Sequence record: NC_129898.1
Origin: a phage
DNA: 64,000 nucleotides
Reading direction: 5' to 3' (one strand)
The notes beneath the pieces were generated by a model that was not told the DNA's origin, did no database searches, and saw only the letters and a list, made by a program, of their open reading frames with translations. Numbering within the stretch: position 1 is the stretch's first letter; every line of letters starts with the position of its first letter. A program made the translations under genes and the position numbers. Below, piece after piece: positions 15,963 to 29,702 of this stretch.

Positions 15963-17132
15963 TTATAGTTTACCCATGCTTGTTACTTTGCCGTCTGTTG
16001 AACCTGTCACTTTACGATTTAGTGGAACAGAAACAAAGTCAGGATAAATCCGCTCTGCAGAGCATTCTAGAGCCAATCGTTTCAAATCGTAGTTAGGATC
16101 CCCAGGGTTCATGTTGACACCCTCCTCTAAGAAGAACAGCACTTTAGGAAACACAGGGGTGATCCGTTCTTCACCAAGACCCATTTTGTGGACTTTCAAG
16201 TAGTTTTTGGTAATCATTCTACCAAAGACCGAGGTATCCAGTCCTAAACTTAATGTGATGAATGGAGTTTGCCCGTTGACAGAAGTTAACGTATTGATTT
16301 GGTAGAGCAAAGTTTGCATACTATCAAACACGTCTTTATCTGTCATTTGCATTGCAACAGTCTCAGCATCTGGCAACCAATGCTCCTGACAAAATTTAAG
16401 GTTCTTCTCATAGGTTGCTTCAGCATACTGTGCCAGATAATGATCAATATGGCTCATGGTTTGACCACCATATTGAGCACTAGCTACTGCACTAGAGATT
16501 TGGCTAAGGATTGTTGTTGCAACCCCTATTGACTTCGGCTTACTGACATGGGCGTTGCCAATGTTGAATCCGTTTTCCAGCATATCCGGATAATTTACCA
16601 AACAACAGTTTGTTAACGGACTGATCAGGTAGTCAAGATCATGCACATGGATGAAGCCTTTGTTGTGCTCTTCGGAGACACGGTCTGGCAGGATCTGTGT
16701 TGATGCAAGATGTTTGCTAAGGATGCCTGCAAGCAGGTCACGATGAGTGTGTACATGATTAGTAGGCTTATTTGCGTTTTCTTTTGTAAATTCATCACAA
16801 GTACGATCCAAGAAGCCACTAATATCTGCAAGCAGTTTTCCACCTGCCTCTCTGTTATTATCTCTTGTCTGTCTATACTGGATGTATTCTCTGGCTGCAC
16901 ATTTTAAACCCATATCCATAAGAGCATCTTCAACAAGGATATGGATATTTTTTACAGAGATCGTGCACTGGTCGGTTGGCAGATTGTTGGCAACAACTTC
17001 ATTAACCGCACAGGCAATCCGGTAAGCTTCTTCTTCAGTATGTCCAGACTCAAGTAAGGCGGACTCTGCCGCCTTGATCACCTTAATTCCGTTATAAAAC
17101 TCTTCTCTACCGTCCCGTTTTACAACTTTCAC
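15963..17132 (-). CDS. nrdD: anaerobic ribonucleoside-triphosphate reductase, N-terminal part (ATP-cone)
   Basis: N-terminal VVKRDGREEFYNGIKV ATP-cone; terminates at a stop immediately 5' of the HNH region. Confidence 0.85.
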   Translation of the reverse strand: MKVVKRDGREEFYNGIKVIKAAESALLESGHTEEEAYRIACAVNEVVANNLPTDQCTISVKNIHILVEDALMDMGLKCAAREYIQYRQTRDNNREAGGKLLADISGFLDRTCDEFTKENANKPTNHVHTHRDLLAGILSKHLASTQILPDRVSEEHNKGFIHVHDLDYLISPLTNCCLVNYPDMLENGFNIGNAHVSKPKSIGVATTILSQISSAVASAQYGGQTMSHIDHYLAQYAEATYEKNLKFCQEHWLPDAETVAMQMTDKDVFDSMQTLLYQINTLTSVNGQTPFITLSLGLDTSVFGRMITKNYLKVHKMGLGEERITPVFPKVLFFLEEGVNMNPGDPNYDLKRLALECSAERIYPDFVSVPLNRKVTGSTDGKVTSMGKL

Positions 17133-17407
17133 TTTTTCTCTCCAAAACCATTCTTAACAAAAGAGATGAAATCGTCAGCACCACCTATGTGGATACTGTC
17201 AAGGTTGCTTTCCAAGAAGATCTGAGGCAACGTTCTGGGAACAAATGGGCTACACTTCTCGATAAGCTCTTCTTTTGTGTATCCCTCACCTAGCGTCTTG
17301 TATACGAAAGGTATGCCTTTGCTGACTGCAAATTCTTTTGCTCTTACACAATGTGGGCAGTTATCCTTGCCGTAAATGATGATGAAAAAAGATTTTTCGC
17401 AGCTCAT
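17129..17407 (-). CDS. nrdH: glutaredoxin-like protein (NrdH-like)
   Basis: CPHC redox motif near N-terminus; 92 aa; between nrdD and nrdB. Confidence 0.7.
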   Translation of the reverse strand: MSCEKSFFIIIYGKDNCPHCVRAKEFAVSKGIPFVYKTLGEGYTKEELIEKCSPFVPRTLPQIFLESNLDSIHIGGADDFISFVKNGFGEKK

Positions 17408-17410
17408 ATA

Positions 17411-18499
17411 TTAAAACTCCCAAATTTCTTCTTCAGCGTCGTTAACGGTTGTGTTGACGCGGTAGTCGGTGTTAGACATTTCCTGGTTAGCCGTCTGTTG
17501 CAGTGAAGGTTTCATCCACACCTGCATAAACGGTAGCGGGTCCTTTGTTGGCGGCACAAAGTCTTTGTCGATGTCGTAATAATCATAAATCGGTGAGCAG
17601 TTATAGTCAACCCATTCTTTAAGCAACGGGGAATTAAGACCTATAATCGCTCTTCCTTCGCTGAAAATATAGTCACTCCAACCGTACTCCTTGGTCCGCA
17701 CTTCGTCAAGAATTTCTTTTAACTCACCCTTAATCTCAAGAAAGCTTTGCTCCCATGCAGGATCATCAAGCAGGATATCGATGATAGCAAAATCACCTTT
17801 CGAATGCAGCATTTCATCAAGCATAATTTTTTGAACAAGTTGTGCCACTTGAACAAAAATACCTTGCTCAGCTACTGCGAACGTACATGCAAAACTTGCA
17901 ATAAACTCAATACTTTCTAGAGCTAAAAGTGCAAAAAGTGCTCTAAGGATACATTTCCGTACAACATCTTCTTCAACACTGGAAGGATCCAGTCGGTATT
18001 TTGCACCAATAACCTCAAGCTCTTGCATATATTTGACAATAACTCCAGATCTGCTCAGCACGTTCTGGTTTTCCTGAATCTCTTCTATAATCTCGCGAGC
18101 ATTAGGAAGGCATTGTCTAACAATCTCTGAGTAAGTTAGTGCATGAAGAACCTCAATCTCAGACTGCTTCATCAACAAGGTGAAAAGCTCACTGTTGGTG
18201 ATAAATGGTGAAAACAGACAAATGATAGATCTTGCTGCAACACTGTCTGCCTCCCATTGCCACATCAGTGTCTGCACCATCACATCGTAAGTTGACTTTG
18301 AGCATGTTACGAAATCAGAAATAGACTGTGACAAATCTACTTCGTCCTCTGCCCAATCTTGTTCTTTTTGTTTTTTGTATAGTTCAAACAGCTGTGGATA
18401 CTTTTTGTTAATAGAGTCGTACATCCCCATCTGCTGTCCTAGAAACAGCGGATAATCACCAGTTTTATGAGCAGTGTTCTCAGTATTAAATACGGACAT
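17411..18499 (-). CDS. nrdB: ribonucleotide reductase class I beta subunit
   Basis: 362 aa; di-iron ligand helices (E..H patterns); directly downstream of nrdA. Confidence 0.85.
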   Translation of the reverse strand: MSVFNTENTAHKTGDYPLFLGQQMGMYDSINKKYPQLFELYKKQKEQDWAEDEVDLSQSISDFVTCSKSTYDVMVQTLMWQWEADSVAARSIICLFSPFITNSELFTLLMKQSEIEVLHALTYSEIVRQCLPNAREIIEEIQENQNVLSRSGVIVKYMQELEVIGAKYRLDPSSVEEDVVRKCILRALFALLALESIEFIASFACTFAVAEQGIFVQVAQLVQKIMLDEMLHSKGDFAIIDILLDDPAWEQSFLEIKGELKEILDEVRTKEYGWSDYIFSEGRAIIGLNSPLLKEWVDYNCSPIYDYYDIDKDFVPPTKDPLPFMQVWMKPSLQQTANQEMSNTDYRVNTTVNDAEEEIWEF

Positions 18500-18516
18500 T
18501 ATTCTACCTCTAAAAT

Positions 18517-18530
18517 GGGGCCGAAGCCCC
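18517..18530 (-). terminator. intergenic hairpin between nrdA and nrdB (attenuator/terminator-like)
   Basis: GGGGC-CGAA-GCCCC flanked by A- and T-runs on both sides. Confidence 0.4.
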
Positions 18531-18537
18531 TTTTAAA

Positions 18538-20853
18538 TTACAGTGCACAACTTTCGCAATACGGATCTTCAACTGAACTATCTGCAATCAAAGGATAGTT
18601 CTTTCTGGTTTCATCTTCAGCCTGTTTCTTCGCGTGAAGCTCCTCTGTCAAAGAGTCACCAGCACCAACCCGAGAGTTTAAGTAATACCATGTCTTCATC
18701 CCGAATTTAGTAGCACGGATAAGATACCCAAGCTGCTCCTTCATTGAAATTTTACCATCTTTCAACTTGGTGTAATCAATATATAGGTCAGCACTGATTG
18801 CCTGTCCTGTGAATTTTTGAATCACAGCATACATATCAATCATGTCGTTAGTATCAACGTCCCAAGCCGAGGTATAATACTCTTTCAGTTCATCATATTC
18901 AGGAACGATAAACAGCACCTGCCCTTGTGGTGACTTTTTAAAGATAATGTGTTCACGGACAGGATAAACCCCGTTAGTGGTGTTTGTTGCCAACGAAGAG
19001 CTTTCATTAGGCATGTATGCTTCAAGAACGCTATTACGTAGTCCACCGTTTTCAATAATTTCTTTACGTAACCCTTCCCAATCCTGCTTAAGAGAAGGAT
19101 CTTTCACCACACTATCGACCTCTTTGTTATAAGTGTCGATTGGTAACCAACCATCTGGGTATTTTGTTTTATGCATCCACTCGCAGACACCACGCTCTTT
19201 TGCCAATCGTAAACTTGCCTTATGCAAGCTGTAGCTGTGGAGCTCTGCAAGATCGTGAACAAGCTGTTTACTTTCAGGAGATCCGTAAGCAACCTTGTGG
19301 CTGGCAATAAAATGTGCAACATTGGTAAGGCCAACCCCGATGGATCTGCGTTTTTTAACAGTGCTCTCCATATTTTCATACGGATATGTCATGATTTCCA
19401 TAACATTGTCAATCATAAGCACAGTGTAGTATGCAACATCCTCATACTCCTCTGGGGTAACCCTTCCCGCTACAAGAGATGACAGGAAGCACAATGCAAC
19501 TTCGCCATCATCAACATCGTACTTGAAGATATTACGCATATCTGAATAGCCTTTTGTCGGGAGGGCTATTTCTGCACACAGGTTACTTGAATAGATTACA
19601 TCTTTAAAAGGTGTATGTCTATTCATCTCATCTGTCCAGTACACATACAATCTGCCAACCTCGGTACGCTGAGTGATCAGTTCAACAGCAAGGTCTCTAG
19701 CACGGATCCATGTTTTAGGAATGCTGTCATCTTTAGCAATACGATCAACCTCTGCATCAAACTCCTCCATAGACATGGTGAAGATACCCTCGTGCAGTTG
19801 AGGCGCGTGCTTATAGGAAACAAGCATCCAATCTAAATTCTTAGCCACACGGTTGATAAATGACCTATTAATACCTATAGAGTAGTCCATGGTGTTGATT
19901 CTTTTTGAAGCAACAGTCATAGGGTTTCTCAAACGGATTAGCTCATCAATCTGTGGGTCTAGCGCAAGAAATGATACCGTTGCCGAACCTCCGCGTGATT
20001 GTTGTCTATTCTCCTTAACCCCAGCATCAATACCTCGATAATATGGAAGCTTACCCATATGTTTAATAGTGTTACCACGAACACCATCACCTGCAGATCT
20101 TGATGATAAATAGTAGCCAATACCTGCTTGGTTAACCGTCATTGTGTACGCAACTTCACGTGCCACACCAATAGATTTTGCTGTATCGTCAGCTTTTATT
20201 ACACAACAAGATGCATACCCTGTCTTACCTGTGCGTAGACCGTTTAAGTACGGTGTCGGGGCATTGATCTTTAAGTCTGACAGATAAGTGTATAATTTTA
20301 CAACATCGTCAATACGGCGTTCTTTCGGCATATTTTTCATGACAGCCATCGCTATCCCCATGAACATCATCTGTGGGGATTCGAACAGGGTGTCTTTAAG
20401 AGTATCCTTGATCCCGTATTTGTCTCGAAACTGTTTAAGGACTGCATAGCCATAACCAAGGTCTTTACTGTGATCAATAACAGTGTCTAAAGTGTTTAAC
20501 TCGGTAAAGCTATAACCCATATCCTCCCAATACCCTTTATCAACCATGGTGTTGTAAAATGATGGTAAGGAAGGGATCTTTGTAAATCCTCCAAAAGCCT
20601 CTTTATAAATCTGACCGATAAGAACACGACCAGCCATACGAGAATGTGCTTCGTCCTTACGGCTAACACAGGAGTCTATAATAGCTTGGTTAACTTCTTT
20701 GGTTGTGCATCCATCATACAGCCGTTTGTATGCATCAAGTGCAATATGTGACCAATTGCCGTTACCGTCGTCACCGAAAATAGCTGCCTTATTTAAACGT
20801 TCCGGATCGAATGCCACTTCACATCCGTTGCTTTTAATTACCTTGGTGATCAA
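18538..20853 (-). CDS. nrdA: ribonucleotide reductase class I alpha subunit
   Basis: 771 aa; N-terminal ATP-cone (VIKSNGCEVAFDPERL), catalytic NLCAEI and C-terminal CxxC tail. Confidence 0.9.
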   Translation of the reverse strand: MITKVIKSNGCEVAFDPERLNKAAIFGDDGNGNWSHIALDAYKRLYDGCTTKEVNQAIIDSCVSRKDEAHSRMAGRVLIGQIYKEAFGGFTKIPSLPSFYNTMVDKGYWEDMGYSFTELNTLDTVIDHSKDLGYGYAVLKQFRDKYGIKDTLKDTLFESPQMMFMGIAMAVMKNMPKERRIDDVVKLYTYLSDLKINAPTPYLNGLRTGKTGYASCCVIKADDTAKSIGVAREVAYTMTVNQAGIGYYLSSRSAGDGVRGNTIKHMGKLPYYRGIDAGVKENRQQSRGGSATVSFLALDPQIDELIRLRNPMTVASKRINTMDYSIGINRSFINRVAKNLDWMLVSYKHAPQLHEGIFTMSMEEFDAEVDRIAKDDSIPKTWIRARDLAVELITQRTEVGRLYVYWTDEMNRHTPFKDVIYSSNLCAEIALPTKGYSDMRNIFKYDVDDGEVALCFLSSLVAGRVTPEEYEDVAYYTVLMIDNVMEIMTYPYENMESTVKKRRSIGVGLTNVAHFIASHKVAYGSPESKQLVHDLAELHSYSLHKASLRLAKERGVCEWMHKTKYPDGWLPIDTYNKEVDSVVKDPSLKQDWEGLRKEIIENGGLRNSVLEAYMPNESSSLATNTTNGVYPVREHIIFKKSPQGQVLFIVPEYDELKEYYTSAWDVDTNDMIDMYAVIQKFTGQAISADLYIDYTKLKDGKISMKEQLGYLIRATKFGMKTWYYLNSRVGAGDSLTEELHAKKQAEDETRKNYPLIADSSVEDPYCESCAL

Positions 20854-21080
20854 TTTGCTTCCTCCACTTCATCAACGTATTTATCAAGGCAGGTATCAGT
20901 ATCTTGTTGGATAAAGGTATCCTCTTCTACGGAGATATTTATAATTTTACCTGTATACTCGTCATAATAAACATCATCATACATTTTAATATCATTTGTC
21001 AGGCCGTTGAACCAAAGCCAACCAACATACTCTGACCGACTTGCAAAACCAAGATCCTTCCACTTGGAGTTATGACTCAT
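20850..21080 (-). CDS. hypothetical protein
   Basis: Start set at ATG 21080 (MSHNSKW) with AAGGTGG RBS, after the stop of 21091..21591. Confidence 0.45.
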   Translation of the reverse strand: MSHNSKWKDLGFASRSEYVGWLWFNGLTNDIKMYDDVYYDEYTGKIINISVEEDTFIQQDTDTCLDKYVDEVEEAN

Positions 21081-21090
21081 CTTCACCACC

Positions 21091-21591
21091 TTAGCTTTCA
21101 ATACCGAATAATTTTTCCAGGCGATGCAGATCTTCAAAATTGAAAGGTTCATCAACAATATGAATATCTTCAGCCTTTTCAGATTGTTTTGTATACTTTC
21201 TTACATTAACACGATCTTCTACAGGGATATCATACGGAAGATCTTGAACAAGCATTGCCTCACCGGGTGCTTTATCTACATCTAAAATATCTACACCGTT
21301 ATACATTTGCGGGTATCTAAAGTCTGCACGCATGACACCAGCAAATACATCTGCCTTTCGATAATGGGTTGGCTTATTTTTGCATCGAACGTTTTTTCCA
21401 CGAAGAACATCAATATTTTTTAAATCAAACCCTACAGCAAAGAGTGCAGCTCGGAGACCGTTTCGTGTGCGAACGTTAAATCCGGGAACAGTAGATAGGA
21501 AATCTAAAGTAACTGAAATAAATGTCTTTTTAGGAATCATAACATTACTCATATCTGTCTCCATTTCTGGCTCACCAACAAAGTGAGCCAT
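21091..21591 (-). CDS. hypothetical protein
   Basis: 166-aa ORF. Confidence 0.5.
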   Translation of the reverse strand: MAHFVGEPEMETDMSNVMIPKKTFISVTLDFLSTVPGFNVRTRNGLRAALFAVGFDLKNIDVLRGKNVRCKNKPTHYRKADVFAGVMRADFRYPQMYNGVDILDVDKAPGEAMLVQDLPYDIPVEDRVNVRKYTKQSEKAEDIHIVDEPFNFEDLHRLEKLFGIES

Positions 21592-21650
21592 TATTATAGA
21601 TTATCTGATGCTATTAGTCAACACAAAAGTTACCTATCGCTGTGATAGGA

Positions 21651-22634
21651 TTAACCTTTCATGAAGTGGTTATTAAGCAGCTGTCTGTGCTGAACCCACC
21701 CACAAAAGTTGGCAGACCAGAATTTACCATCACGGTCTTGATGGGTTACACCTTCCTGCCAAACACAGCTGTCCTGTGTGATTTCACATGAAGACAGGTA
21801 GTAGTTTAAACGTTCCATTGCGTTATCGTGATCCATAGGTGTTGCCTGGTGCTCGTAGGGGCTTGCATGAATACGATCCCCACCAATCAATTTTTTAGCC
21901 ACACTGTCTGCCTTTTCAAACGTGCTGTCAATATTTCGATAAGATACTTGTGCACAGCAACTAGCACTAATAGACAGAGCTTCTTTAGTATCGAGAATGC
22001 AGAGCTTTCCTTCTGTGTCACGTACAGCGTAGTTAAACTCTCCGTCCAAATAAACATGCTCTACATATGGGGTGTGCCATTGACCCGGTTTAAGGATTTC
22101 AGGAGTGCTATTCATAATAGCATCCTGCATGCAATTAGCCAACATCTGAATCGTAGGATCCGCATCGTGCCAGCAACGTAGGTGGAAAAAATTATTCCAC
22201 TCGGTGCTTGTTACAACTGTTTTCATGCGCTGAAACGGCTCTACTAAGCGGTTACATACTTGCTTATGGTAACCAGCAAGGGCGAACTTCTCTGCATGCC
22301 AAGCGGCGTTTTTTGCAGCTTCTTTCCAAAACTCTTCAGGGGTCATCTCCATGTCAGTGTATTCTACACGGATCTTTTGATCGTGTTCCCCTCCATCTTC
22401 CATTCCTCGCTTATTTACACCGAAGCGAACTGGCATTGCCGGATTCTCAACAATCTGCTGCAGCATCTTGCTGACAGGCACTGCACGAGAAGACATGGCG
22501 TTTCGGCTGAACATTCGATGTGTCATAAGCTCTGAGTGAATAATTCGAGGATATTCTAGCTCAAAAGTAGTGATACGCTTACCTTTCTCGGAAATGCTGT
22601 CGGCAATAATCTTTGCAGTGCACAGTTTTAGCAT
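21651..22634 (-). CDS. thyX: ThyX-like flavin-dependent thymidylate synthase homolog (atypical length)
   Basis: TFELEYPRIIHSELMTHRMFSRNAMSSR aligns with the ThyX signature (F..P...HR..S.N..S.R) and NFFHLR second motif; 327 aa is longer than typical ThyX. Confidence 0.65.
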   Translation of the reverse strand: MLKLCTAKIIADSISEKGKRITTFELEYPRIIHSELMTHRMFSRNAMSSRAVPVSKMLQQIVENPAMPVRFGVNKRGMEDGGEHDQKIRVEYTDMEMTPEEFWKEAAKNAAWHAEKFALAGYHKQVCNRLVEPFQRMKTVVTSTEWNNFFHLRCWHDADPTIQMLANCMQDAIMNSTPEILKPGQWHTPYVEHVYLDGEFNYAVRDTEGKLCILDTKEALSISASCCAQVSYRNIDSTFEKADSVAKKLIGGDRIHASPYEHQATPMDHDNAMERLNYYLSSCEITQDSCVWQEGVTHQDRDGKFWSANFCGWVQHRQLLNNHFMKG

Positions 22635-22834
22635 TATTTAGCTCTCCTTGTTTTAATTTTGGAAATTTCGTCTGGGTTTATGTTGGCCTTAAATGCAAGG
22701 TATCTGTTAAACATATCGGAGCACATATCTTGGGTGATCCTAGAGGCATACACCAGCTTACCGCCCAGATCATACACCTCTATCCAGTCACCGTATCTGA
22801 CTACAGGATCGCCACCTTTAGAACATCTGCCCAT
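22634..22834 (-). CDS. hypothetical protein
   Basis: 66-aa ORF. Confidence 0.4.
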   Translation of the reverse strand: MGRCSKGGDPVVRYGDWIEVYDLGGKLVYASRITQDMCSDMFNRYLAFKANINPDEISKIKTRRAK

Positions 22835-22835
22835 T

Positions 22836-23429
22836 TCAAATACCTTCTAAAAACTTCCCTATTTTATACCAGCTGTTAGCGGTATAGTCAACACTAACCT
22901 TCAACTCCTCGAATTGCTCGTAAGGAGTGTCTTTTAAGATTTTAATAACTTCAGGACGTGAAGCGAATTGATTCAGGTATTCATGCCTGTCGTCAATTAT
23001 AACATCTACAGCCACATTACCTTTGAAATGTGTGGCGTAGAAGCCGTGACCCTGGGTGTGATCGTCCAGATCCATAAAATCGCTGGTCCAACGCTTTAAG
23101 AACCTTGATTTAGATGCAAGGTGACCTTTCTTACATACAGAGATAAATGCAAGCTTGTGACCACGAGCCACCAAATCTTTCATAACCTCAATAGCCCCCT
23201 CTTCAGGCTTAAGAAAGTCGTAGAGGAACGGGTCACTCCAGAAATCAAAAGGCCCTATGATGTTTTCTTTGGGGCGATCAGGCCAATACTTTGACAGATC
23301 GTAATACATCAGTCCGTTAGAAGGTTTAGCGACTGTCTTGCTGGCTGGGCCATACAAACGCTCTAGCCATTCCCACCATGCTGTTCCTGAGTCTACCAGT
23401 GTTAAATCTACATCAATTCCGATCAGCAT
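22836..23429 (-). CDS. HAD-superfamily 5'(3')-deoxyribonucleotidase-like hydrolase
   Basis: N-terminal IGIDVDLTLVDS (DxDxT) HAD motif I; DDR motif late. Confidence 0.6.
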   Translation of the reverse strand: MLIGIDVDLTLVDSGTAWWEWLERLYGPASKTVAKPSNGLMYYDLSKYWPDRPKENIIGPFDFWSDPFLYDFLKPEEGAIEVMKDLVARGHKLAFISVCKKGHLASKSRFLKRWTSDFMDLDDHTQGHGFYATHFKGNVAVDVIIDDRHEYLNQFASRPEVIKILKDTPYEQFEELKVSVDYTANSWYKIGKFLEGI

Positions 23430-23434
23430 TGTTC

Positions 23435-24037
23435 TCAGACCTCTTTAGCATCAATATACTTGCACACAATCTCAGATGCGCACTCCCAAGGAGCTCCCTC
23501 AGGGTTAACAACATCAAACTCGATACCTTTTATCCCGTTCTTCTCTAGGCTAAGGTAAGTTCTGGAATCATTTCCCCAATCATATCCTGCACGGTGGATA
23601 CGGAACAGTAGAAGATCGCCACCTGTGCTGTATGCGTACTCGCCAAGGCATGCCAGCTCCTCTTTGAAGCCACCATCGGAGTAAACAACAACCCCTTTAC
23701 CTTCAGGGAAATCTTTCTTCAAGGATGCGACTGCGGCCTTACCGAAAGCATCTTCACCAAAGATAGGTTTAATCAGATTTTCACTACAATGGATCATCCA
23801 TTCTCGCGGAGAAACATGCTTGCCGTCTATCATTAAGAACGGGCACGGTTCTTCTTTGTAGCGGCGATCATAAAGTGCATTCCACAACTGTGGTGAAATA
23901 CCAGCTGCCTTAATTGCCACACTGAATAGCATTTCCTTTACCTCGCGGTGATGCGAGTTTGGAATGGCTTCCAACAAAAGATCTGCGATATGGTCTTTTC
24001 CAGAACTTGGTGGAGCATTAAGAACAATAATATCCAT
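23435..24037 (-). CDS. deoxynucleoside monophosphate kinase-like P-loop kinase
   Basis: P-loop LNAPPSSGKDHIADLL resembles T4 gp1 dNMP kinase N-terminus. Confidence 0.55.
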   Translation of the reverse strand: MDIIVLNAPPSSGKDHIADLLLEAIPNSHHREVKEMLFSVAIKAAGISPQLWNALYDRRYKEEPCPFLMIDGKHVSPREWMIHCSENLIKPIFGEDAFGKAAVASLKKDFPEGKGVVVYSDGGFKEELACLGEYAYSTGGDLLLFRIHRAGYDWGNDSRTYLSLEKNGIKGIEFDVVNPEGAPWECASEIVCKYIDAKEV

Positions 24038-24240
24038 TAAAAACCTCCGTGGTATTCTTCAACTGCATCAATAATACTTTTACACTTATCTACCAGTTCG
24101 TTAGCTACTACGGCATCGTCTTCCCAAACAGCCTCCTCAATCTGATCAAGCAGTGATCGCATCTTATTCATCATTTCTGGAACAAAGCTTTCTGAAAAGC
24201 TGTCTGGGATTGTTAACTCTGGTGTCATTGCGGTCTCCAA
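24037..24240 (-). CDS. hypothetical acidic protein
   Basis: 67-aa ORF. Confidence 0.4.
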   Translation of the reverse strand: METAMTPELTIPDSFSESFVPEMMNKMRSLLDQIEEAVWEDDAVVANELVDKCKSIIDAVEEYHGGF

Positions 24241-24255
24241 TCATACTGTGCGTTA

Positions 24256-24714
24256 TTAGAAGTTTGTTTTTACACGTCCCTTTTCATCTACTTCGTTGTT
24301 AGCTAAAAGCGTTACAAAGTCTGTAAAACGAACATGAAGAACTCTTTTCTTATCCAGGTATCCTAAAGCCACACCTGAGAAATTTACCATCAAAGGTGCT
24401 AAAGAAGCTCTAGCACTGAAATGCTGCTGTTCCACTCTTCCAACACCCTTAGTATAAGAAGGGTTGAGATTGTAAGTTCTGAATCCAAGTTTTGTTGGAG
24501 CTTTAGAATTAAAAACAACTTTATAACGTTTCTTACTCAGCTTATGTTCCAGAATAAGCATGCCCTTTTCGCCACGGATAAGCTGAAAATCTGTAAAATG
24601 CTCTTTTAAGACAAAAGGTAGTGCCAGCCCCATAGCCTGCCCCCTTTGCACGGCTGTCTCACCAAAAGCTTTTGCATCAGTAAGCTCTTTAGTCAAGTCT
24701 ATACTTTTGATCAT
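24256..24714 (-). CDS. hypothetical protein
   Basis: 152-aa ORF. Confidence 0.5.
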   Translation of the reverse strand: MIKSIDLTKELTDAKAFGETAVQRGQAMGLALPFVLKEHFTDFQLIRGEKGMLILEHKLSKKRYKVVFNSKAPTKLGFRTYNLNPSYTKGVGRVEQQHFSARASLAPLMVNFSGVALGYLDKKRVLHVRFTDFVTLLANNEVDEKGRVKTNF

Positions 24715-25525
24715 ACCTGGTCTCCAAAATGTATTGTAGTTCTTTCTTGCCTATACTCTTCATTCCAGCAGTCTTACCTGCTTCTTCTTGAAAAGAAGAA
24801 TAGCATTCAGCAAACACTCTGTCAACACCATCAACTAAAGATTTTATGAAATATGTTGATTCTTCAGATTTTGGGTCATCCTTCCCCAATACTTTTCCAG
24901 CATTATACCCAACACGCCTTATGCAGAAGTCGTAGTCATCTGGTGTACTAAAAGAAAATAGCTTATTCTCCCCAATCTCTACAGGATCCCTATTGCACAC
25001 CTTTTTCTCCCAAATTTGGAAAACACATGGCACGTCATAAGGTTTGCCGTTGAGTAAAAACGAGTTCTTGGGGCACCTTTCGCTGTAAATAAGGTGCATC
25101 GACATGTCCAGTTTGTTTGCAAAAAATATTTTTTCAAATGTCCGTGGCAAGATGAAGGCTATAGCCCCACCAGGCTCTAGCAATGATGCACAGTGGTTAA
25201 AAAACTTGCAAGCTAAAGACGAATTTTTGCCGAATGGAGGATTACCTATGAAGACATCAGCTTTAGGGTACACCTCTAAGAAGTTTGCCTTAATACACGG
25301 TGTTGGGCCTTCAAATTCAGGATCTGGTACCAAATCGTACGACAGTATCTCTGAAAATAGTTTTGAAAAAGAACCCTTTCCAGCAGAAGGCTCAACGTAT
25401 GCACAACTCCCATACTTACCTTTTACTTTACCAACAAGATATTCTGCATACTCAGGGTCTGTGTAATATTTGTCGTTGGACTCTTTCTTGCTCAAGGTGC
25501 CTCCAAAATGAAAAGGGAGGCGCAA
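24689..25525 (-). CDS. DNA N6-adenine methyltransferase (NPPF motif)
   Basis: VFIGNPPFGKNSSLA catalytic motif; 278 aa. Confidence 0.65.
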   Translation of the reverse strand: MRLPFHFGGTLSKKESNDKYYTDPEYAEYLVGKVKGKYGSCAYVEPSAGKGSFSKLFSEILSYDLVPDPEFEGPTPCIKANFLEVYPKADVFIGNPPFGKNSSLACKFFNHCASLLEPGGAIAFILPRTFEKIFFANKLDMSMHLIYSERCPKNSFLLNGKPYDVPCVFQIWEKKVCNRDPVEIGENKLFSFSTPDDYDFCIRRVGYNAGKVLGKDDPKSEESTYFIKSLVDGVDRVFAECYSSFQEEAGKTAGMKSIGKKELQYILETRYDQKYRLD

Positions 25526-25533
25526 GCCTCCCT
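25505..25533 (-). terminator. intrinsic terminator
   Basis: AGGGAGGC-GCAA-GCCTCCCT; on the minus strand followed by TTTTCATTTT; 3' of 25541..26524. Confidence 0.6.
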
Positions 25534-25540
25534 CTACTTG

Positions 25541-26524
25541 TCAGATTATCTGAATCAGGGTGTTTTTCATCTCTTCTCGGGTACGGATGTTGTTACGATC
25601 ACGAACAACAGACCCACAACCTTCGCAGCGGTAGGTTTTAAATGCACTCAGTTGAGTATACGCCAAAGCCTCTTCCTCGTGAAGGTGTTCTCCACCACAA
25701 CGTGGGCAACGAACTTTTGACTCCTCATCTTGGTAGTACAACGACATGTTGGGGTGCTGCTTAGCAAACGGACGCGCCAGCAAATACAGTCCTTCCAGAG
25801 ACAAGATGTCCCCAACATTATACTCCCGCATCTGTTTAAACGCCTCAAGATCACCATGAACACACTTGATCCACATTTCAAATGTGTGGTCAATTAGTTT
25901 CTGTCTGGCCAGTTGGAAGTATTTACATGCATACTCTAACGTGTTTGCATTCAAACGGAATGCCTTTTTAATCATCTTGAGGGTGTCAACCTCTTTGTAT
26001 GGGCTTGTTGGCGGCAAACCGTGAAATGCAAATCGTTGGTTAGCCCACCCACAGTCAAAACCAGAGTTGTGTGCTACTGCGACATCACATTTATCCAAAT
26101 AATACCACAAATCTTGAATCAGCTCAAGATCGTTGTGGATATCCTCGCCCCACATTTTGTAATCAGGAAGAGCACAGTCAACCACGCTAGGGCTGTCTAA
26201 CCATTTACCTGCGAAAGTTAGCATATAGGGCATAATTTCAATACCGCAGGTTTGAATGTTGGTCTTATAATGCCCAAAGAACCAGCCGTTTGTTGGGGAT
26301 GTCTCTGTATCATACACCCAAACTTTAGCACCTTTGTGTTCTTCAAGGAAGCGCTCCGTTGCCTCTCCTACAATCTCTGACATATTCTCTTGTGCACGTT
26401 TAAGCTGTAGCCGGATCCAGCTCTCACGTGACTCACTACCTAAAAATTCACGAGCAATTTGTCTATTAGTGTATCCCTGTTGCTTCAGTGTTAAAATTTG
26501 CTCAAGAGTTAACTTTGTCATCAT
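25541..26524 (-). CDS. DEDD-family 3'-5' exonuclease with N-terminal HTH
   Basis: VWVYDTETS (Exo I), VAHNSGFDCGW (Exo II), H...D (Exo III); N-terminal GYTNRQIAREF HTH-like segment. Confidence 0.6.
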   Translation of the reverse strand: MMTKLTLEQILTLKQQGYTNRQIAREFLGSESRESWIRLQLKRAQENMSEIVGEATERFLEEHKGAKVWVYDTETSPTNGWFFGHYKTNIQTCGIEIMPYMLTFAGKWLDSPSVVDCALPDYKMWGEDIHNDLELIQDLWYYLDKCDVAVAHNSGFDCGWANQRFAFHGLPPTSPYKEVDTLKMIKKAFRLNANTLEYACKYFQLARQKLIDHTFEMWIKCVHGDLEAFKQMREYNVGDILSLEGLYLLARPFAKQHPNMSLYYQDEESKVRCPRCGGEHLHEEEALAYTQLSAFKTYRCEGCGSVVRDRNNIRTREEMKNTLIQII

Positions 26525-26536
26525 CGTTAAGATTCC

Positions 26537-26758
26537 TTAGTAAAACTGAAGAATGTCTTTTAAAGCGAAGTCACGATATTCGCCCTTGTCTACATCAAAT
26601 GCATGCATCAACCACTGCTCTTCTTTATGATACTCTGTAGATCCAAACCATAAACTAGGCTCAGTAACGCAGCGATCTGCAACAACACCTTTCCAGTTAC
26701 GGTATTTCATTCTGATCAGAACTGAATCGCAAGGATTGAATACCTTTTTCATCCCCAT
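26537..26758 (-). CDS. hypothetical protein
   Basis: 73-aa ORF overlapping the 3' end of 26697..27302; uncertain. Confidence 0.3.
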   Translation of the reverse strand: MGMKKVFNPCDSVLIRMKYRNWKGVVADRCVTEPSLWFGSTEYHKEEQWLMHAFDVDKGEYRDFALKDILQFY

Positions 26759-27302
26759 AGAAATCTCTCTCCTCAGTTTTCTTTATAAACTCCTGCATGT
26801 ATGCCTCAATAGCCTCATGCTTGGTGTACTCTGAATTAATGACAAGATCGAGATCCGATTCTGCCCGTGCAATAATCGTAGCCTTAGAGCATCTCCTCAA
26901 GAACTTTGTCATATCATCTCTGTAGTTTTTGTGGAGCGGGAAGTCGCTGTAGTCTTTCTCCAGATAGTCAGCCATCCGGCGCAACGCCTCTGATAAACTG
27001 CAATCTGTGTACTCGTTACAGTATTTCATCCAGTATTTAAGCACATACCCCTCGAAGGTATTAGTGCATTGGGACAAAACACCCCTGCAACGACCAGTCA
27101 GATGATCATGATCTAAACAAGGCTTACGAAGTGGTTCACACAAGATCGGATCAAGACCATCCTGCTCTTCTGACAATTCTTTTCGAAAGTTGGCTATGTC
27201 CTTAGAATCTTTTAGCCACCCGCTATGAACGGGGGCTTTGACAGCTTTCTTTCTTATTTTACGCTTTGCGATAATCCCTCCAGATGCGCCCTGCCTATCC
27301 AA
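26697..27302 (-). CDS. recombination endonuclease VII-like (His-Cys box)
   Basis: CEPLRKPCLDHDHLTGRCRGVLSQCTN matches the endonuclease VII Zn/HNH core. Confidence 0.7.
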   Translation of the reverse strand: MDRQGASGGIIAKRKIRKKAVKAPVHSGWLKDSKDIANFRKELSEEQDGLDPILCEPLRKPCLDHDHLTGRCRGVLSQCTNTFEGYVLKYWMKYCNEYTDCSLSEALRRMADYLEKDYSDFPLHKNYRDDMTKFLRRCSKATIIARAESDLDLVINSEYTKHEAIEAYMQEFIKKTEERDFYGDEKGIQSLRFSSDQNEIP

Positions 27303-27883
27303 TAAGCATCTGCAAGATCGGCCTTACCTTGTACCAAATTGATCCCATCCAGGAACCCCGGTTCAGATACTTCGCAGGCCTTAACCATCAACTTTTTATC
27401 CATCGTAACAGGTTTCTTCACAGTATGCTCTTTACCTGTCCTTTTGTCAAGCTTTTTCTTCTCCTCAAAAGCAAGTTCTTCAGGAAGATGACTACGAGCA
27501 AACTTTTTGGCAGTTGTTGGTGTCACTGTGTGGACCTTAAACAGGCCGTCATTTTCACAATCTGCTAAAGCATCCCAAAGCATAACTTCAAGACCATAAA
27601 ACAACCCAGCCAGTTCACGTGTGGCATCTCCTCGCGATCCGAAGGAGAGCCCTTCCATAACCACGGTGTCAACGCCGTGCGTGTGGATATAATATCTAAC
27701 CTGTTTGCAGATCCAGTCAATACGCTCAGCAGCTGTTGCAAAAGAAACCGTCCCTGGTTTCTTTTCTTTTGCAGACGAGCTTTGGGTTCGTAACACAACC
27801 TTATGAACAGGCCTACCATCGTCCCATACAACGCAGGCCGTGTGGGTAAGAGACTGGTCTATAGACAGCAGTCTTTCTCTCAT
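27254..27883 (-). CDS. RuvC-like Holliday junction resolvase
   Basis: N-terminal LSIDQSLTHTACVV (catalytic D), C-terminal DLADAYWIG resembling RuvC DAADA. Confidence 0.55.
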   Translation of the reverse strand: MRERLLSIDQSLTHTACVVWDDGRPVHKVVLRTQSSSAKEKKPGTVSFATAAERIDWICKQVRYYIHTHGVDTVVMEGLSFGSRGDATRELAGLFYGLEVMLWDALADCENDGLFKVHTVTPTTAKKFARSHLPEELAFEEKKKLDKRTGKEHTVKKPVTMDKKLMVKACEVSEPGFLDGINLVQGKADLADAYWIGRAHLEGLSQSVK

Positions 27884-28206
27884 GCTGTCTCCTCTTCATC
27901 TGGGGCATAAGCTTTGTCTTTGAACAACACAAGGGAGCAAAGCTTAACATCTGTTTCCACACTGGTAAACATGCATAACCGCTCGCCCTCGATCAGCTCA
28001 CAGTCCTCTTTTAAAACAGCAGACCATACACGATCATCTGCGTAATCATCAGTATACAAGATGTATGCAATAGTGTCATCTTCATACAACCGCCACATAC
28101 CTGTGGCAACAATAAATGTATTTTTTGTTTTAATGGTGCCTGTTGTATGGTCATCCTCAAAAACAGCTTCCATAATTGCATTATCTACAGAGTTTTTAGT
28201 CATCAA
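27880..28206 (-). CDS. hypothetical protein
   Basis: 108-aa ORF. Confidence 0.45.
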   Translation of the reverse strand: MMTKNSVDNAIMEAVFEDDHTTGTIKTKNTFIVATGMWRLYEDDTIAYILYTDDYADDRVWSAVLKEDCELIEGERLCMFTSVETDVKLCSLVLFKDKAYAPDEEETA

Positions 28207-29342
28207 ATTGCTCCAACATTTCTAAGAACATTAACAAGTTTTGTTTGGTCATTGAATGATCGCTTCATATACAAACAGTCGAAAATTATACTCATCCACT
28301 GACCTACGGAAATCCTACGGTCGATACCATTGAAATCAGTATACTTAACGGCACCTTTCGGAAACCATTTTTTATACTGATCAATGATTGCTAACCACAT
28401 CTCCTTCGGTGTGCTGCACTGAGACAGCAAGGAGAATGCAGATGCATCTCCAAACTTTCCTTTACCAATAAGCCCTTGGTAAGGCTTAATATTGTCAGCT
28501 GAGTCACCACATAGCATTTGATAACCGAAGAACAACATTCCATACCCACCAACATCTCCGTTTGGTTTCATGAATATGTTACCCATACCGTTATCAATAA
28601 GCATAGGAGTTTCTCTTACAAAATCACCTTTATCGTTCCTCATCGGATCGAATACAAGCCCAGGAAGTGTTCGCTGGTCCTTATCTATAGAGATAATAAA
28701 CTTGTTGAACTTACCTGTTTTCTGGTAGTGGTTCCAACCTTCAAATTGCTGGATAGCTAACCAGTCGTCAGCTTCAATACCGTTGATCACCTGAGCGTTA
28801 TACTGCTTTTGGAGATACTGTCTTGCATCTTCAAGCAACAGTGGTCGAAGAGTATTGTTACGGTTGGCTTTATATCGTTCCGGCATGGGAAGATCTAGTC
28901 TGAAATTACCTGTGCCTCCAAGCACTCCTACGCACCGATCTTCAGGAATACCAAGATAGTTAAGGACTGCGTTAGCTTTACACTTAATTGTGTGCAAGCA
29001 GTTCTCTACAGGATCAGGGGTTTGGATATCCAAGACATCGAAATCTTCACGTGTCCACGGAATAAACTCCTTGCCAGCTTTTTTACATGCAGCTTCACGG
29101 TTGGTGTTCTCAGCCTTTAACCAACCGCCAACTGCGTTCTTCTGCCTCCCCCAAAACTCTGTTCGTGTTTTGAACACCTTCTTACGTCCGGAGGCTTTAT
29201 GTGTTACCTCAATTGTCCTTTTTTCACAACTTGCTGCAGCTTGATATGCAACCTGATCGAAGTCATAATAAACTATAGCGTCAGGTTCAAGAAGATCAGC
29301 TAGACAATCTATGGACTCAATAAGTGGATATTCTCTACTCAA
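28203..29342 (-). CDS. FEN-family 5'-3' exonuclease / RNase H-like
   Basis: IVYYDFDQVAYQAA, GIEADDWLAIQQF and FIISIDKDQRTL match the three acidic motifs of Pol I 5' nuclease / T4 RNase H. Confidence 0.7.
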   Translation of the reverse strand: MSREYPLIESIDCLADLLEPDAIVYYDFDQVAYQAAASCEKRTIEVTHKASGRKKVFKTRTEFWGRQKNAVGGWLKAENTNREAACKKAGKEFIPWTREDFDVLDIQTPDPVENCLHTIKCKANAVLNYLGIPEDRCVGVLGGTGNFRLDLPMPERYKANRNNTLRPLLLEDARQYLQKQYNAQVINGIEADDWLAIQQFEGWNHYQKTGKFNKFIISIDKDQRTLPGLVFDPMRNDKGDFVRETPMLIDNGMGNIFMKPNGDVGGYGMLFFGYQMLCGDSADNIKPYQGLIGKGKFGDASAFSLLSQCSTPKEMWLAIIDQYKKWFPKGAVKYTDFNGIDRRISVGQWMSIIFDCLYMKRSFNDQTKLVNVLRNVGAI

Positions 29343-29643
29343 AGACCCTCCTGTTAGTTACTCTGCAAGATGGTTGGATGCTGTAATGGAATGCATCATC
29401 ACTCTCTGCAATAAGCGACTCAACATCCCAATATTTTTCAAAAAGGAACGGATTAGACCCCCAGTGGTGGGTTATTTTCATCAAGGAGTCTGGTATCAGA
29501 TAACCAGAGATCTTAACTACATCACCAGGTTGAATTGTGTTTTCATGAAGGTTGCTTGCCTTCTTCAGGATCATACCTTTATGATTCTCGTTTGCATACA
29601 ACTGGACAATATCTTTATCTTCAACAATAAAAATTTTAAGCAT
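29335..29643 (-). CDS. hypothetical protein
   Basis: 102-aa ORF. Confidence 0.45.
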   Translation of the reverse strand: MLKIFIVEDKDIVQLYANENHKGMILKKASNLHENTIQPGDVVKISGYLIPDSLMKITHHWGSNPFLFEKYWDVESLIAESDDAFHYSIQPSCRVTNRRVFE

Positions 29644-29702
29644 ACCTAGTTCTCCTAGTTTATAAATATCTGACTGATACTATCAGATTAATGACACTTT
29701 TG

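What the first reader, a model, noticed from the sequence alone, without database searches (positions are those of the whole stretch)
21651..22634. ThyX signature in an unusually long (327 aa) protein
The ThyX signature region (TFELEYPRIIHSELMTHRMFSRNAMSSR) begins within about 25 residues of the N-terminus, followed by roughly 280 further residues, whereas typical ThyX enzymes are about 220-250 aa with the motif near residue 80. The extra C-terminal portion may be an added domain.
Basis: partly seen in the sequence, partly recalled or inferred. Interest (0 to 1): 0.45.

Follow-up and report, generated by a model that had tools for sequence, protein, structure and literature searches.

The report
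Rearranged phage ThyX thymidylate synthase
This is the thymidylate-synthase-like gene found in rV5-like, N4-like and many other phages; its extra length is real because a flavin/folate-binding piece that normally sits before the ThyX signature lies about 200 residues after it, and the enzyme has apparently never been tested.

Summary
A 327-aa ORF (21651-22634, minus strand) has a sound start and stop and carries a ThyX-type signature at residues 30-50. Canonical ThyX carries it near residue 80.

The window is a Vequintavirus-like (rV5-like) coliphage, 99% identical to phage HMD-6. The protein belongs to a very large, essentially viral family, with full-length relatives of 280-350 aa in over 1000 phage genomes. 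These include rV5 gp106, N4 gp30 and ICP1 gp193, all annotated as ThyX or thymidylate synthase.

The "added C-terminal domain" reading is only partly right. Residues about 216-262 are homologous to residues 20-59 of T. maritima ThyX, the two helices and the HxxPxEH loop that are missing from the N-terminus. The fold elements are therefore out of order (permuted). Family-specific conserved motifs are added: GMQ, WHxPY and GNFxGWxQxRQ.

Most ThyX catalytic residues are kept, but the first Arg of RHR is Thr and the Tyr "lid" is Ala. The protein scores far below the NCBIfam thyX equivalog cutoff.

It is the phage's only candidate thymidylate synthase and sits in a dNTP-synthesis operon. The best reading is a topologically rearranged flavin-dependent thymidylate synthase. 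Its function is inferred, not shown.

The parts
21651..22634 (-). Complete CDS of the 327-aa ThyX-like protein, stop codon included
   Evidence: ORF list. Pfam Thy1 35.1 bits. PHROG 85 'thymidylate synthase', E 1.4e-111. 100% identical to the HMD-6 CDS annotated 'FAD-dependent thymidylate synthase'.
22644..22649 (-). Shine-Dalgarno AAGGAG, 9 nt upstream of the ATG. The ATG (22632-22634) overlaps the upstream gene's TAA by 1 nt, which suggests translational coupling.
   Evidence: Direct reading of the sequence.
22548..22634 (-). Residues 1-29: N-terminal beta-hairpin (strands 6-15 and 20-29). Strand 20-29 aligns with canonical beta3 (Tm 60-67). A tight turn replaces the canonical alpha1-alpha2 segment between the strands.
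   Evidence: AF2 secondary structure; hhalign and HMM alignments to Tm ThyX.
22485..22547 (-). Residues 30-50: ThyX signature R30-x7-T38-H39-R40-x2-S43-x4-S48-S49-R50, against canonical RHRxxSxxxxSxR. The first Arg is Thr.
   Evidence: Alignments to Tm 70-90. Conservation in 149 sequences: R30 96%, T38 95%, H39 98%, S48 97%, R50 99%.
22341..22484 (-). Residues 51-98: family-specific insert between the signature and helix alpha4, carrying the conserved NPxxPxx(F/W)GxNxxGMQ motif
   Evidence: A1 and A2 alignments. P53 95%, P68 97%, G77 99%, M78 99%. No counterpart in the Tm alignment.
22086..22340 (-). Residues 99-183: canonical ThyX core (helices 99-119 and 124-134, strand 136-143, helices 147-150 and 160-174). 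It contains HKQxxNRLxEP and NFFxLR (R153 = Tm R174, N148 = Tm N169).
21990..22085 (-). Residues 184-215: beta-rich linker with the invariant WHxPY motif (H187 and P189 100% conserved); variable length between family members
   Evidence: AF2 strands 192-196, 199-205 and 211-214; conservation. No detectable homology to ThyX.
21849..21989 (-). Residues 216-262: relocated alpha1-alpha2-His-loop segment (ISASCCAQVSYR ... IHASPYEH), homologous to Tm ThyX residues 20-59 (H256 = Tm H53, E261 = E58, H262 = H59)
   Evidence: Permutation tests against Pfam Thy1 and against Tm ThyX with shuffled controls. H256 99%, S258 95%, E261 97%, H262 99%. Intein insertion site at H256|A257 in relatives.
21651..21848 (-). 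Residues 263-327 plus stop: family-specific C-terminal tail. It has a variable beta-hairpin insert (GVTHxDRxGxxW) and the conserved terminal motif SGNFxGWxQxRQ (N309 95%, Q315 96%, R317 100%).
   Evidence: Alignments A1 and A2; conservation; pLDDT 84-90 over 261-310; no homology to ThyX detected.
22836..24037 (-). Upstream genes of the same operon: dNMP kinase (23435-24037) and NT5C-type 5'-deoxynucleotidase (22836-23429)
   Evidence: PHROG 139 dNMP kinase, E 3e-43; Pfam NT5C 27.1 bits; HMD-6 annotation.
17129..20853 (-). Downstream genes of the same operon: NrdA (18538-20853), NrdB (17411-18499) and glutaredoxin (17129-17407)
   Evidence: ORFs; HMD-6 annotation of the collinear region.

Best explanation
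The gene encodes the phage's flavin-dependent thymidylate synthase (ThyX/FDTS homologue) in a non-collinear, permuted form.

Shown:
- The ThyX core (beta3, signature loop, helices alpha4-alpha7) occupies residues 20-183.
- The alpha1-alpha2-HxxPxEH segment precedes the signature in every solved ThyX. There it supplies His53, which I recall (own knowledge) stacks on the folate and flavin.
- Here that segment lies at residues 216-262, after the core.
- Three family-specific conserved elements are added: GMQ at 77-79, WHxPY at 186-190 and GNFxGWxQxR at 308-317.

Inferred:
- The rearranged chain rebuilds a ThyX-like active site.
- It binds FAD and methylates dUMP to dTMP, using CH2H4folate and NAD(P)H from the host.
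- This feeds the phage's own dNTP pathway together with the neighbouring RNR, dNMP kinase and nucleotidase genes.
- The invariant new residues (R317, H187) probably replace the lost canonical contacts (Tm R78 -> T38; Tyr91 lid -> A51).

The most economical origin is a tandem ThyX duplication followed by loss of complementary parts. This origin was not tested.
For: Homology and fold:
- Pfam Thy1 scores above its threshold.

Permutation:
- The native Thy1 match stops at profile position 60.
- Grafted constructs extend the match to positions 12-16, with +7.5 to +16 bits over shuffled controls.
- The 149-sequence profile hits Tm ThyX non-collinearly: HMM 192-233 to Tm 20-59, HMM 2-30 to Tm 62-90, and HMM 105-151 to Tm 153-199.
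- The permuted profile scores 48.1 bits, against 22.6 +/- 2.1 for controls. The smaller 25-sequence profile gave 25.6 against 10.1-14.3.

Catalytic residues kept. Those marked * carry a role stated in PMC6514825; the other roles are from my own knowledge.
- R30 = Mtb R87* (96%)
- H39 = Tm H79 (98%)
- R40 = Tm R80 (84%)
- S48 = Tm S88 / Mtb S105* (97%)
- R50 = Tm R90 / Mtb R107* (99%)
- N148 = Tm N169 (98%)
- R153 = Tm R174 / Mtb R199* (99%)
- H256 = Tm H53 (99%)
- E261 (97%) and H262 (99%)

Selection on these sites: relatives carry inteins inserted at about 33/34, about 48, about 153-157 and 256/257, all inside these motifs.

Context:
- The gene sits in an operon between dNMP kinase/NT5C and NrdAB-Grx-NrdDG.
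- N4-like phages pair it with dCTP deaminase. Roseophages pair it with dCMP deaminase (PMC2784036).
- No ThyA, canonical ThyX or DHFR is present in the window or in the whole HMD-6 genome (ThyA query verified). The lack of DHFR fits ThyX chemistry, which yields H4folate (own knowledge).
- Vequintavirinae are 'exceptionally susceptible' to restriction-modification systems (PMC8594841). This argues against an exotic base.
Against: - I found no biochemical or genetic test of any family member. The literature hits are annotations only.
- The protein scores 36.6 bits against the 87.9-bit cutoff of the NCBIfam thyX equivalog model.
- Two dUMP-site residues described as conserved in canonical FDTS are changed in nearly all members: the first Arg of RHR is Thr (T38, 95%) and the Tyr lid is Ala (A51, 98%).
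- Tm E86, R165 and H178 are also not kept.
- The AF2 model is of moderate quality (pLDDT 78). It is poorest exactly at the signature loop (31-50) and around H256-S258.
- I could not obtain the model's coordinates. The permutation therefore rests on sequence profiles, not on a 3-D superposition.
- It is unresolved which strands replace canonical beta1-beta2: residues 6-15 or residues 192-205.
Confidence: 0.7

Rival explanations
1. One reading: an ordinary ThyX domain with an unrelated extra domain fused to its C-terminus.
For: Pfam and NCBIfam place a single Thy1 match at residues 22-180 and nothing on 181-327. The tail 263-327 and the linker 184-215 have no detectable ThyX homology. A ThyX with an extra C-terminal domain exists (T. 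thermophilus, PDB 6J61).
Against: The N-terminal part is not an ordinary ThyX domain. It lacks profile positions 1-59, including the His53 loop. Residues 216-262 match exactly that missing segment. H256/E261/H262 are 97-99% conserved, and H256 is an intein target.
Confidence: 0.08
2. A ThyX-derived enzyme with a different reaction or substrate. Examples are methylation of UMP or dCMP, hydroxymethylation, or another C5 transfer, as in the ThyX homologue PolB (a UMP/dUMP methylase).
For: - The score is well below the thyX equivalog cutoff.
- There are near-invariant changes at dUMP-site positions (R78 -> T, Y91 lid -> A).
- New 100%-conserved residues H187, P189 and R317 lie outside the canonical fold.
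Against: - It is the only candidate thymidylate synthase in a phage that encodes its own RNRs and dNMP kinase.
- The family is paired with dCTP or dCMP deaminase in N4-like phages.
- Four of the five canonical dUMP-contact residues are kept.
- Vequintavirinae DNA is readily restricted.
- The family occurs in many unrelated phage groups with no known base modification. That these groups are unmodified is my own knowledge.
Confidence: 0.15
3. An annotation artefact: a wrong start or stop, or two genes fused by a sequencing error.
For: In phage ECP26 the homologous region is deposited as two proteins of 245 and 97 aa. This shows that such errors occur in this gene.
Against: The SD-ATG signal is sound and the start is coupled to the upstream stop. 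The frame is uninterrupted. 982 phage records match over at least 80% of the length. The family median length is 319 aa across relatives 25-60% identical to the query.
Confidence: 0.02
4. A catalytically dead ThyX relic with a structural or regulatory role.
For: The first motif Arg and the Tyr lid are lost, and there are no activity data.
Against: The remaining catalytic and cofactor residues are 95-100% conserved across sequences only 25-60% identical to the query. Inteins target these motifs. The genomic position is among nucleotide-metabolism enzymes.
Confidence: 0.05

Closest known systems
Canonical flavin-dependent thymidylate synthase ThyX/FDTS (Pfam PF02511, TIGR02170), e.g. T. maritima TM0449 (PDB 1O26/1KQ4), M. 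tuberculosis ThyX (2AF6) and PBCV-1 A674R (2CFA)
   Same: - The signature xHRxxSxxxxSxR is present.
- The equivalents of Tm H53, E58, H79, R80, S88, R90, N169 and R174 are conserved.
- The genomic role is in dNTP synthesis.
   Different: - The order of fold elements differs: the alpha1-alpha2-His-loop lies after the core rather than before the signature.
- It is ~100 residues longer.
- The first Arg of RHR is Thr and the Tyr lid is Ala.
- It has extra conserved motifs (GMQ, WHxPY, GNFxGWxQxR).
- It scores below the equivalog cutoff (36.6 against 87.9 bits).
- No solved structure is detectable by sequence.
Same-family phage proteins already annotated as thymidylate synthase: rV5 gp106, N4 gp30 and G7C gp30, ICP1 gp193, PAK_P1-like and phi92-like homologues (PHROG 85)
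   Same: They are 35-100% identical over the full length, with the same architecture and motifs. The window protein is simply the Vequintavirus member.
   Different: Nothing material. These are annotations by similarity. I found neither biochemistry nor any description of the rearranged topology.
PolB, the ThyX-like UMP/dUMP C5-methylase of polyoxin biosynthesis (PDB 4P5A)
   Different: PolB is collinear with ThyX and ~226-239 aa long. Nothing in the phage context points to ribonucleotide methylation.
T. thermophilus Thy1 with an extra C-terminal domain (PDB 6J61)
   Same: It is a longer-than-usual ThyX with additional C-terminal residues.
   Different: In 6J61 the full collinear ThyX domain is intact: Tm residues 2-217 align with chain residues 6-227. 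The addition there is a true appendage. Here the C-terminal part contains an essential ThyX segment.

Membership tests
ThyX / Thy1 superfamily (Pfam PF02511) | Significant match to the Thy1 profile above Pfam's gathering score | tested here: met
   35.1 bits against a cutoff of 24.8, E 1.5e-8. The match covers only profile positions 60-190 of 191.
ThyX / Thy1 superfamily (Pfam PF02511) | ThyX three-dimensional fold | tested here: met
   [not shown]
Canonical FAD-dependent thymidylate synthase ThyX (NCBIfam TIGR02170, equivalog) | Score at or above the curated equivalog cutoff | tested here: not met
   36.6 bits against a cutoff of 87.9. The match is residues 22-180 to profile positions 60-207 of 211.
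Canonical FAD-dependent thymidylate synthase ThyX | Collinear order beta1beta2 - alpha1alpha2 - His53 loop - beta3 - signature - core | tested here: not met
   The alpha1alpha2-His-loop equivalent lies at residues 216-262, after the core.
Canonical FAD-dependent thymidylate synthase ThyX | ThyX signature RHRxxSxxxxSxR | tested here: inconclusive
   The sequence is T38-H39-R40-M-F-S43-R-N-A-M-S48-S49-R50. All positions are kept except the first Arg, which is Thr in 95% of 149 family members.
Canonical FAD-dependent thymidylate synthase ThyX | Conserved dUMP-contact residues (Mtb R87, R95, S105, R107, R199) and the Tyr108 lid (PMC6514825) | tested here: inconclusive
   R30, S48, R50 and R153 are kept (96-99%). 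R95 -> T38 and Y108 -> A51 are lost.
Canonical FAD-dependent thymidylate synthase ThyX | His53-type residue and the PxEH loop at the flavin/folate site (role from own knowledge) | tested here: met
   H256-A-S-P-Y-E261-H262 aligns with Tm H53-E-T-P-F-E58-H59 and is 97-99% conserved. It is present, but at a relocated position.
Canonical FAD-dependent thymidylate synthase ThyX | FAD binding, NAD(P)H- and CH2H4folate-dependent conversion of dUMP to dTMP; thyA complementation | not testable with these tools
   I found no experimental report for any family member in the searchable literature.
Canonical FAD-dependent thymidylate synthase ThyX | Homotetramer with active sites at subunit interfaces | not tested
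   Only a monomer was modelled, and no coordinates were available.
ThyA-type thymidylate synthase / dUMP hydroxymethylase | Sequence homology to ThyA | tested here: not met
   There is no Pfam or NCBIfam ThyA hit on this protein. tblastn with verified E. coli ThyA finds nothing better than E = 2.3 anywhere in the window or in HMD-6.

The most novel reading that the evidence does not exclude
The family may be a distinct functional class of flavin-dependent pyrimidine C5-transferase rather than a rearranged but ordinary thymidylate synthase. On this reading the permutation, the loss of the first motif Arg and of the Tyr lid, and the new invariant residues (H187, R317, G77-M78) build a remodelled active site. 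That site would have a different substrate, reductant or oligomeric assembly. Possibilities include action on a nucleotide other than dUMP, or use of a different hydride or one-carbon donor. This would be shared by rV5-, phi92-, N4-, ICP1- and PAK_P1-like phages.
Probability: 0.12. Interest if true: 0.75.

Novelty: new variant of a known kind. Interest (0 to 1): 0.4.

Why it matters
ThyX is an antibacterial drug target and a textbook case of a second, unrelated route to thymidylate. Every solved structure and every mechanistic study uses the collinear ~220-250-aa form.

This family has about 5000 clusters at 50% identity and appears in more than 1000 sequenced phages, among them therapeutic and model phages (rV5-like, phi92-like, N4-like, ICP1, PAK_P1-like). 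It appears to build the same active site from a reordered chain, with two canonical substrate-site residues replaced.

If it is active, it shows how tolerant the FDTS active site is to rewiring. It also gives a natural permutant for studying folding and assembly of the tetrameric active site. If it is not a dTMP synthase, the 'thymidylate synthase' annotation in over 1000 phage genomes is wrong.

For genome annotation, it explains why these proteins fail the NCBIfam thyX equivalog model and receive inconsistent names (thymidylate synthase, ThyX-like, hypothetical protein).

Tried and rejected
1. Sequence searches of PDB chains with the native protein and with the 29-sequence profile gave no hits at E <= 1. 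Homology to solved ThyX is too weak for the native order. The permuted single sequence gave only E ~ 1 hits, though these were to T. maritima ThyX across the graft junction.
2. Pfam scans of the C-terminal 136-156 residues alone found no Thy1 match. The homology became visible only in grafted constructs and with a broader family profile.
3. I considered that the terminal GWxQHRQ might be a vestigial second ThyX signature (RQWFRHR), which would support a tandem-duplication origin. The profile alignment does not support it. It remains speculation.
4. The downstream 166-aa ORF is annotated 'thymidylate synthase' in HMD-6. It has no Pfam or NCBIfam match, and its PHROG 5557 is of unknown function. 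I rejected it as a second thymidylate synthase.
5. hhalign of A1 against a single Tm sequence gave only the collinear core (probability 3.4%, E 0.013). This was too weak to be useful.
6. The AFDB fold library was not available. BFVD returned only family members and other phage ThyX proteins.
7. The genome-contig scan with alignment A2 failed for lack of a conserved stretch. With A1 it used only two peptide patterns and gave 17 loci, so this is not a census.
8. Seven literature searches found no experimental work on this family and no mention of a permuted ThyX protein; hits for 'permuted' refer to genomes. The library omits most subscription journals, so absence is not proof.
9. A 3-D check of the permutation was not possible. 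Model coordinates are not exposed, and both fold-search programs align sequentially.
Full report
**1. The observation**

A 327-aa ORF occupies 21651..22634 on the minus strand.

The start is credible:
- An AAGGAG box lies at 22644-22649.
- The ATG lies at 22632-22634.
- The ATG shares one base with the TAA stop of the upstream 66-aa ORF.

Pfam Thy1 (PF02511) matches above threshold, 35.1 against 24.8 bits. The match covers only residues 23-178, equal to profile positions 60-190 of 191. NCBIfam TIGR02170 gives the same picture, residues 22-180 to profile 60-207 of 211.

The signature therefore sits about 50 residues too early, and roughly 150 residues follow the recognisable domain. Solved ThyX chains are 216-270 aa, and T. 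maritima ThyX has the motif at R78-R90. The only correction is that the gene is on the minus strand.

**2. What the window is**

Window 15000-30000 is 99.1% identical to Escherichia phage HMD-6 (138 kb). It is 94-97.5% identical to many other phages of about 136-144 kb. Relatives named include EmilHeitz and JLBYU08, and the rV5 genome paper describes the same gene as gp106. This is a Vequintavirus-like coliphage.

The gene lies in a minus-strand operon of nucleotide metabolism:

| Position | Product |
|---|---|
| 23435-24037 | dNMP kinase |
| 22836-23429 | NT5C-type 5'-deoxynucleotidase |
| 22634-22834 | 66-aa ORF |
| 21651-22634 | the ThyX-like gene |
| 21091-21591 | 166-aa ORF |
| 18538-20853 | NrdA |
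| 17411-18499 | NrdB |
| 17129-17407 | glutaredoxin |
| 15963-17132 and 14247-15239 | split NrdD |
| 13597-14088 | NrdG |

**3. The length is real and typical of a very large family**

- tblastn finds the protein in 1035 phage records, and 982 of them cover at least 80% of its length. Besides rV5-like phages they include phi92-like phages, Vibrio phage ICP1 (gp193), Pakpunavirus, N4-like phages (G7C gp30, similar to N4 gp30), and Caulobacter, Cellulophaga, Flavobacterium, Xanthomonas and Acinetobacter phages.
- The word-indexed search found 6431 relatives, and the best 120 are nearly all 313-347 aa.
- The exhaustive search of 50%-identity representatives found 5051 at E <= 1e-3 and 2019 at E <= 1e-30.
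- A 149-sequence alignment has a median length of 319 aa, at 25-60% identity to the query.
- A pattern-limited scan of 185,579 species genomes gave only 17 loci, mostly on MAG contigs of 7-130 kb. The family therefore looks essentially viral, but that scan used only two peptide patterns.

**4. What the extra part is**

By eye, the C-terminal part contains ...LSISASCCAQVSYRN...EKADSVAKKLIGGDRIHASPYEH. This resembles T. maritima ThyX residues 20-59, LSAVRAARVSFDM...[21 protein letters not shown]. I confirmed my recalled T. maritima sequence as identical to PDB 1KQ4. I then tested the resemblance in three ways.

(a) Grafted constructs against Pfam Thy1. I placed residues 184-262 in front of residue 21, for the window protein and three relatives.

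| Protein | Graft (bits) | Shuffled control (bits) |
|---|---|---|
| Window protein | 48.0 | 40.5 |
| Relative 1 | 39.2 | 23.1 |
| Relative 2 | 46.3 | 30.4 |
| Relative 3 | 47.9 | 37.1 |

In all four the match extended to profile positions 12-16. With a shuffled graft it started at positions 51-59.

(b) A 25-sequence profile of the grafted arrangement against T. maritima ThyX.

| Profile | Bits |
|---|---|
| Grafted arrangement | 25.6 |
| N-part alone | 11.9 |
| Native order | 9.7 |
| 30 column-shuffled controls | 10.1-14.3 |

(c) A 149-sequence profile.

| Profile | Result against T. maritima ThyX |
|---|---|
| C-part (184-262) alone | 16.9 bits, aligned to Tm 20-59 (E 7.8e-4 among 2001 sequences; best decoy 5.9) |
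| Grafted arrangement | 48.1 bits, one contiguous 31.7-bit alignment over Tm 20-90 |
| 40 column-shuffled controls | 22.6 +/- 2.1 bits (maximum 30.1) |

The native-order profile hits Tm ThyX in non-collinear order:
- HMM 192-233 to Tm 20-59
- HMM 2-30 to Tm 62-90
- HMM 105-151 to Tm 153-199

The alignment equates H256-A-S-P-Y-E261-H262 with Tm H53-E-T-P-F-E58-H59.

The secondary structure of the AF2 model agrees (pLDDT 78, pTM 0.77). Strands 6-15 and 20-29 form a hairpin where canonical ThyX has beta2-alpha1-alpha2-beta3. Helices 216-233 and 239-250 precede the His loop. The canonical secondary structure in this comparison is from my own knowledge.

I could not superpose coordinates, so the permutation rests on sequence statistics.

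The remaining extra residues have no detectable ThyX counterpart:
- the insert at 51-98
- the linker at 184-215
- the tail at 263-327

All three carry strongly conserved family-specific motifs:
- G77-M78, 99% each
- W186-H187-x-P189-Y190, with H187 and P189 at 100%
- N309 at 95%, Q315 at 96% and R317 at 100%

**5. Active-site bookkeeping**

I mapped residues through the alignments, with conservation.

| Status | This protein | Canonical equivalent | Conservation |
|---|---|---|---|
| Kept | R30 | Mtb R87 | 96% |
| Kept | H39 | Tm H79 | 98% |
| Kept | R40 | Tm R80 | 84% |
| Kept | S48 | Tm S88 / Mtb S105 | 97% |
| Kept | R50 | Tm R90 / Mtb R107 | 99% |
| Kept | N148 | Tm N169 | 98% |
| Kept | R153 | Tm R174 / Mtb R199 | 99% |
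| Kept | H256 | Tm H53 | 99% |
| Kept | E261 | Tm E58 | 97% |
| Kept | H262 | Tm H59 | 99% |
| Changed | T38 | Tm R78 / Mtb R95 | 95% Thr |
| Changed | A51 | Tm Y91 / Mtb Y108 | 98% Ala |
| Changed | A46 | Tm E86 | 57% Ala |
| Changed | T144 | Tm R165 | 96% Thr |
| Changed | D157 | Tm H178 | 67% Asp |

The review PMC6514825 lists Mtb R87, R95, S105, R107 and R199 as the conserved dUMP contacts and Y108 as the lid over the reacting atoms. Four of the five contacts are retained, and the lid is lost. I infer, but cannot show, that the invariant new residues (R317, H187, M78) fill these roles.

An independent sign that the motifs matter comes from inteins. About 16 of the 150 best cluster representatives are 520-680 aa long. 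Four of these were scanned against Pfam. Two (P0126, P0144) carry an intein splicing domain with HNH, and two (P0160, P0234) gave only a LAGLIDADG match. From BLAST segment boundaries, the insertions lie near H33|S34, near S48, near R153-D157 and at H256|A257. Every site is inside a conserved motif, and one is in the relocated loop.

**6. Function**

This is the only candidate thymidylate synthase in the phage.
- The full HMD-6 annotation lists no ThyA, DHFR or dCMP deaminase.
- tblastn with E. coli ThyA (sequence verified) and with T. maritima ThyX finds nothing better than E = 2.3 in the window or in HMD-6.

The operon context is dNTP synthesis. N4-like phages place the homologue near dCTP deaminase. 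Roseophages encode a dCMP deaminase alongside it (PMC2784036). The lack of a DHFR fits ThyX chemistry, which regenerates H4folate (established knowledge, not tested here).

Vequintavirinae are 'exceptionally susceptible' to restriction-modification systems (PMC8594841). This gives no hint of an exotic base.

The most likely function is therefore flavin-dependent dUMP -> dTMP synthesis using host folate and NAD(P)H. None of this has been tested. The literature I could search contains only similarity-based annotations. I found no description of the rearranged topology.

**7. Comparison with what is known**

The protein works like, and descends from, ThyX. It meets superfamily membership, with a Pfam hit and the fold.

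It fails two tests of canonical ThyX membership:
- the curated equivalog score, 36.6 against 87.9 bits
- collinear domain order

It only partly satisfies the signature and the dUMP-contact set.

It differs from T. thermophilus Thy1 (PDB 6J61), whose extra C-terminal domain is appended to an intact collinear domain. It differs from PolB (PDB 4P5A), which is also collinear.

**8. Verdict**

However, the gene family is already routinely annotated as ThyX or thymidylate synthase, and its probable function is ordinary.

What appears to be undescribed is the non-collinear topology, together with a remodelled substrate site, in a very abundant phage family.

- Interest: 0.4.
- Novelty: new variant of a known kind.
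- Main uncertainties: there is no activity data, the model is of moderate confidence, and there is no 3-D superposition.

Noticed in passing
window 21091-21591 (-): The 166-aa ORF immediately downstream is annotated 'thymidylate synthase' in phage HMD-6. It has no Pfam or NCBIfam match, and it belongs to PHROG 5557, which is of unknown function. The annotation looks like an error carried over from its neighbour.
   Followed up: partly
window 14247-17132 (-): The anaerobic RNR gene nrdD is split into two ORFs (15963-17132, 389 aa; 14247-15239, 330 aa). A 183-aa ORF lies between them (15360-15911), at the position of the HNH homing endonuclease annotated in HMD-6. This may be an intron or a homing-endonuclease insertion.
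   Followed up: no
relatives P0126, P0133, P0135, P0144, P0148, P0160, P0170, P0175, P0207, P0212, P0217, P0230-P0232, P0234, P0260: About one in ten of the best cluster representatives is 520-680 aa long. Four were scanned: P0126 and P0144 carry an intein splicing domain with HNH, while P0160 and P0234 gave only a LAGLIDADG match. The insertions fall at four different conserved sites, near query residues 33/34, 48, 153-157 and 256/257. The sites were inferred from BLAST segment boundaries only.
   Followed up: partly
GenBank records MG065644-MG065690 ('Campylobacter phage A112b, C2, A142 ...'): About 24-26 records labelled as Campylobacter jejuni phages are 94-96% identical to this rV5-like coliphage region. 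They carry no annotation. The host label looks doubtful.
   Followed up: no
BFVD entries A0A4Y5TVX3 and A0A4Y5TVY4 (Escherichia phage vB_EcoM-ECP26): In ECP26 the same gene is deposited as two proteins of 245 and 97 aa, 96-97% identical to the window protein. This is probably a frameshift or a sequencing error.
   Followed up: no
loci L014-L030 (genome contigs): Family members lie on MAG contigs binned to very different phyla, including Deferribacteraceae, Chloroflexi, Dependentiae, Saccharibacteria, Bacteroidota and Opitutia. Contig sizes are 7-130 kb. These are probably phage contigs swept into bins rather than cellular genes.
   Followed up: no
window 18538-20853 (-): The NrdA ORF as listed starts at a TTG, and HMD-6 is annotated with the same 771-aa length. 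I did not check whether an internal ATG is the true start.
   Followed up: no
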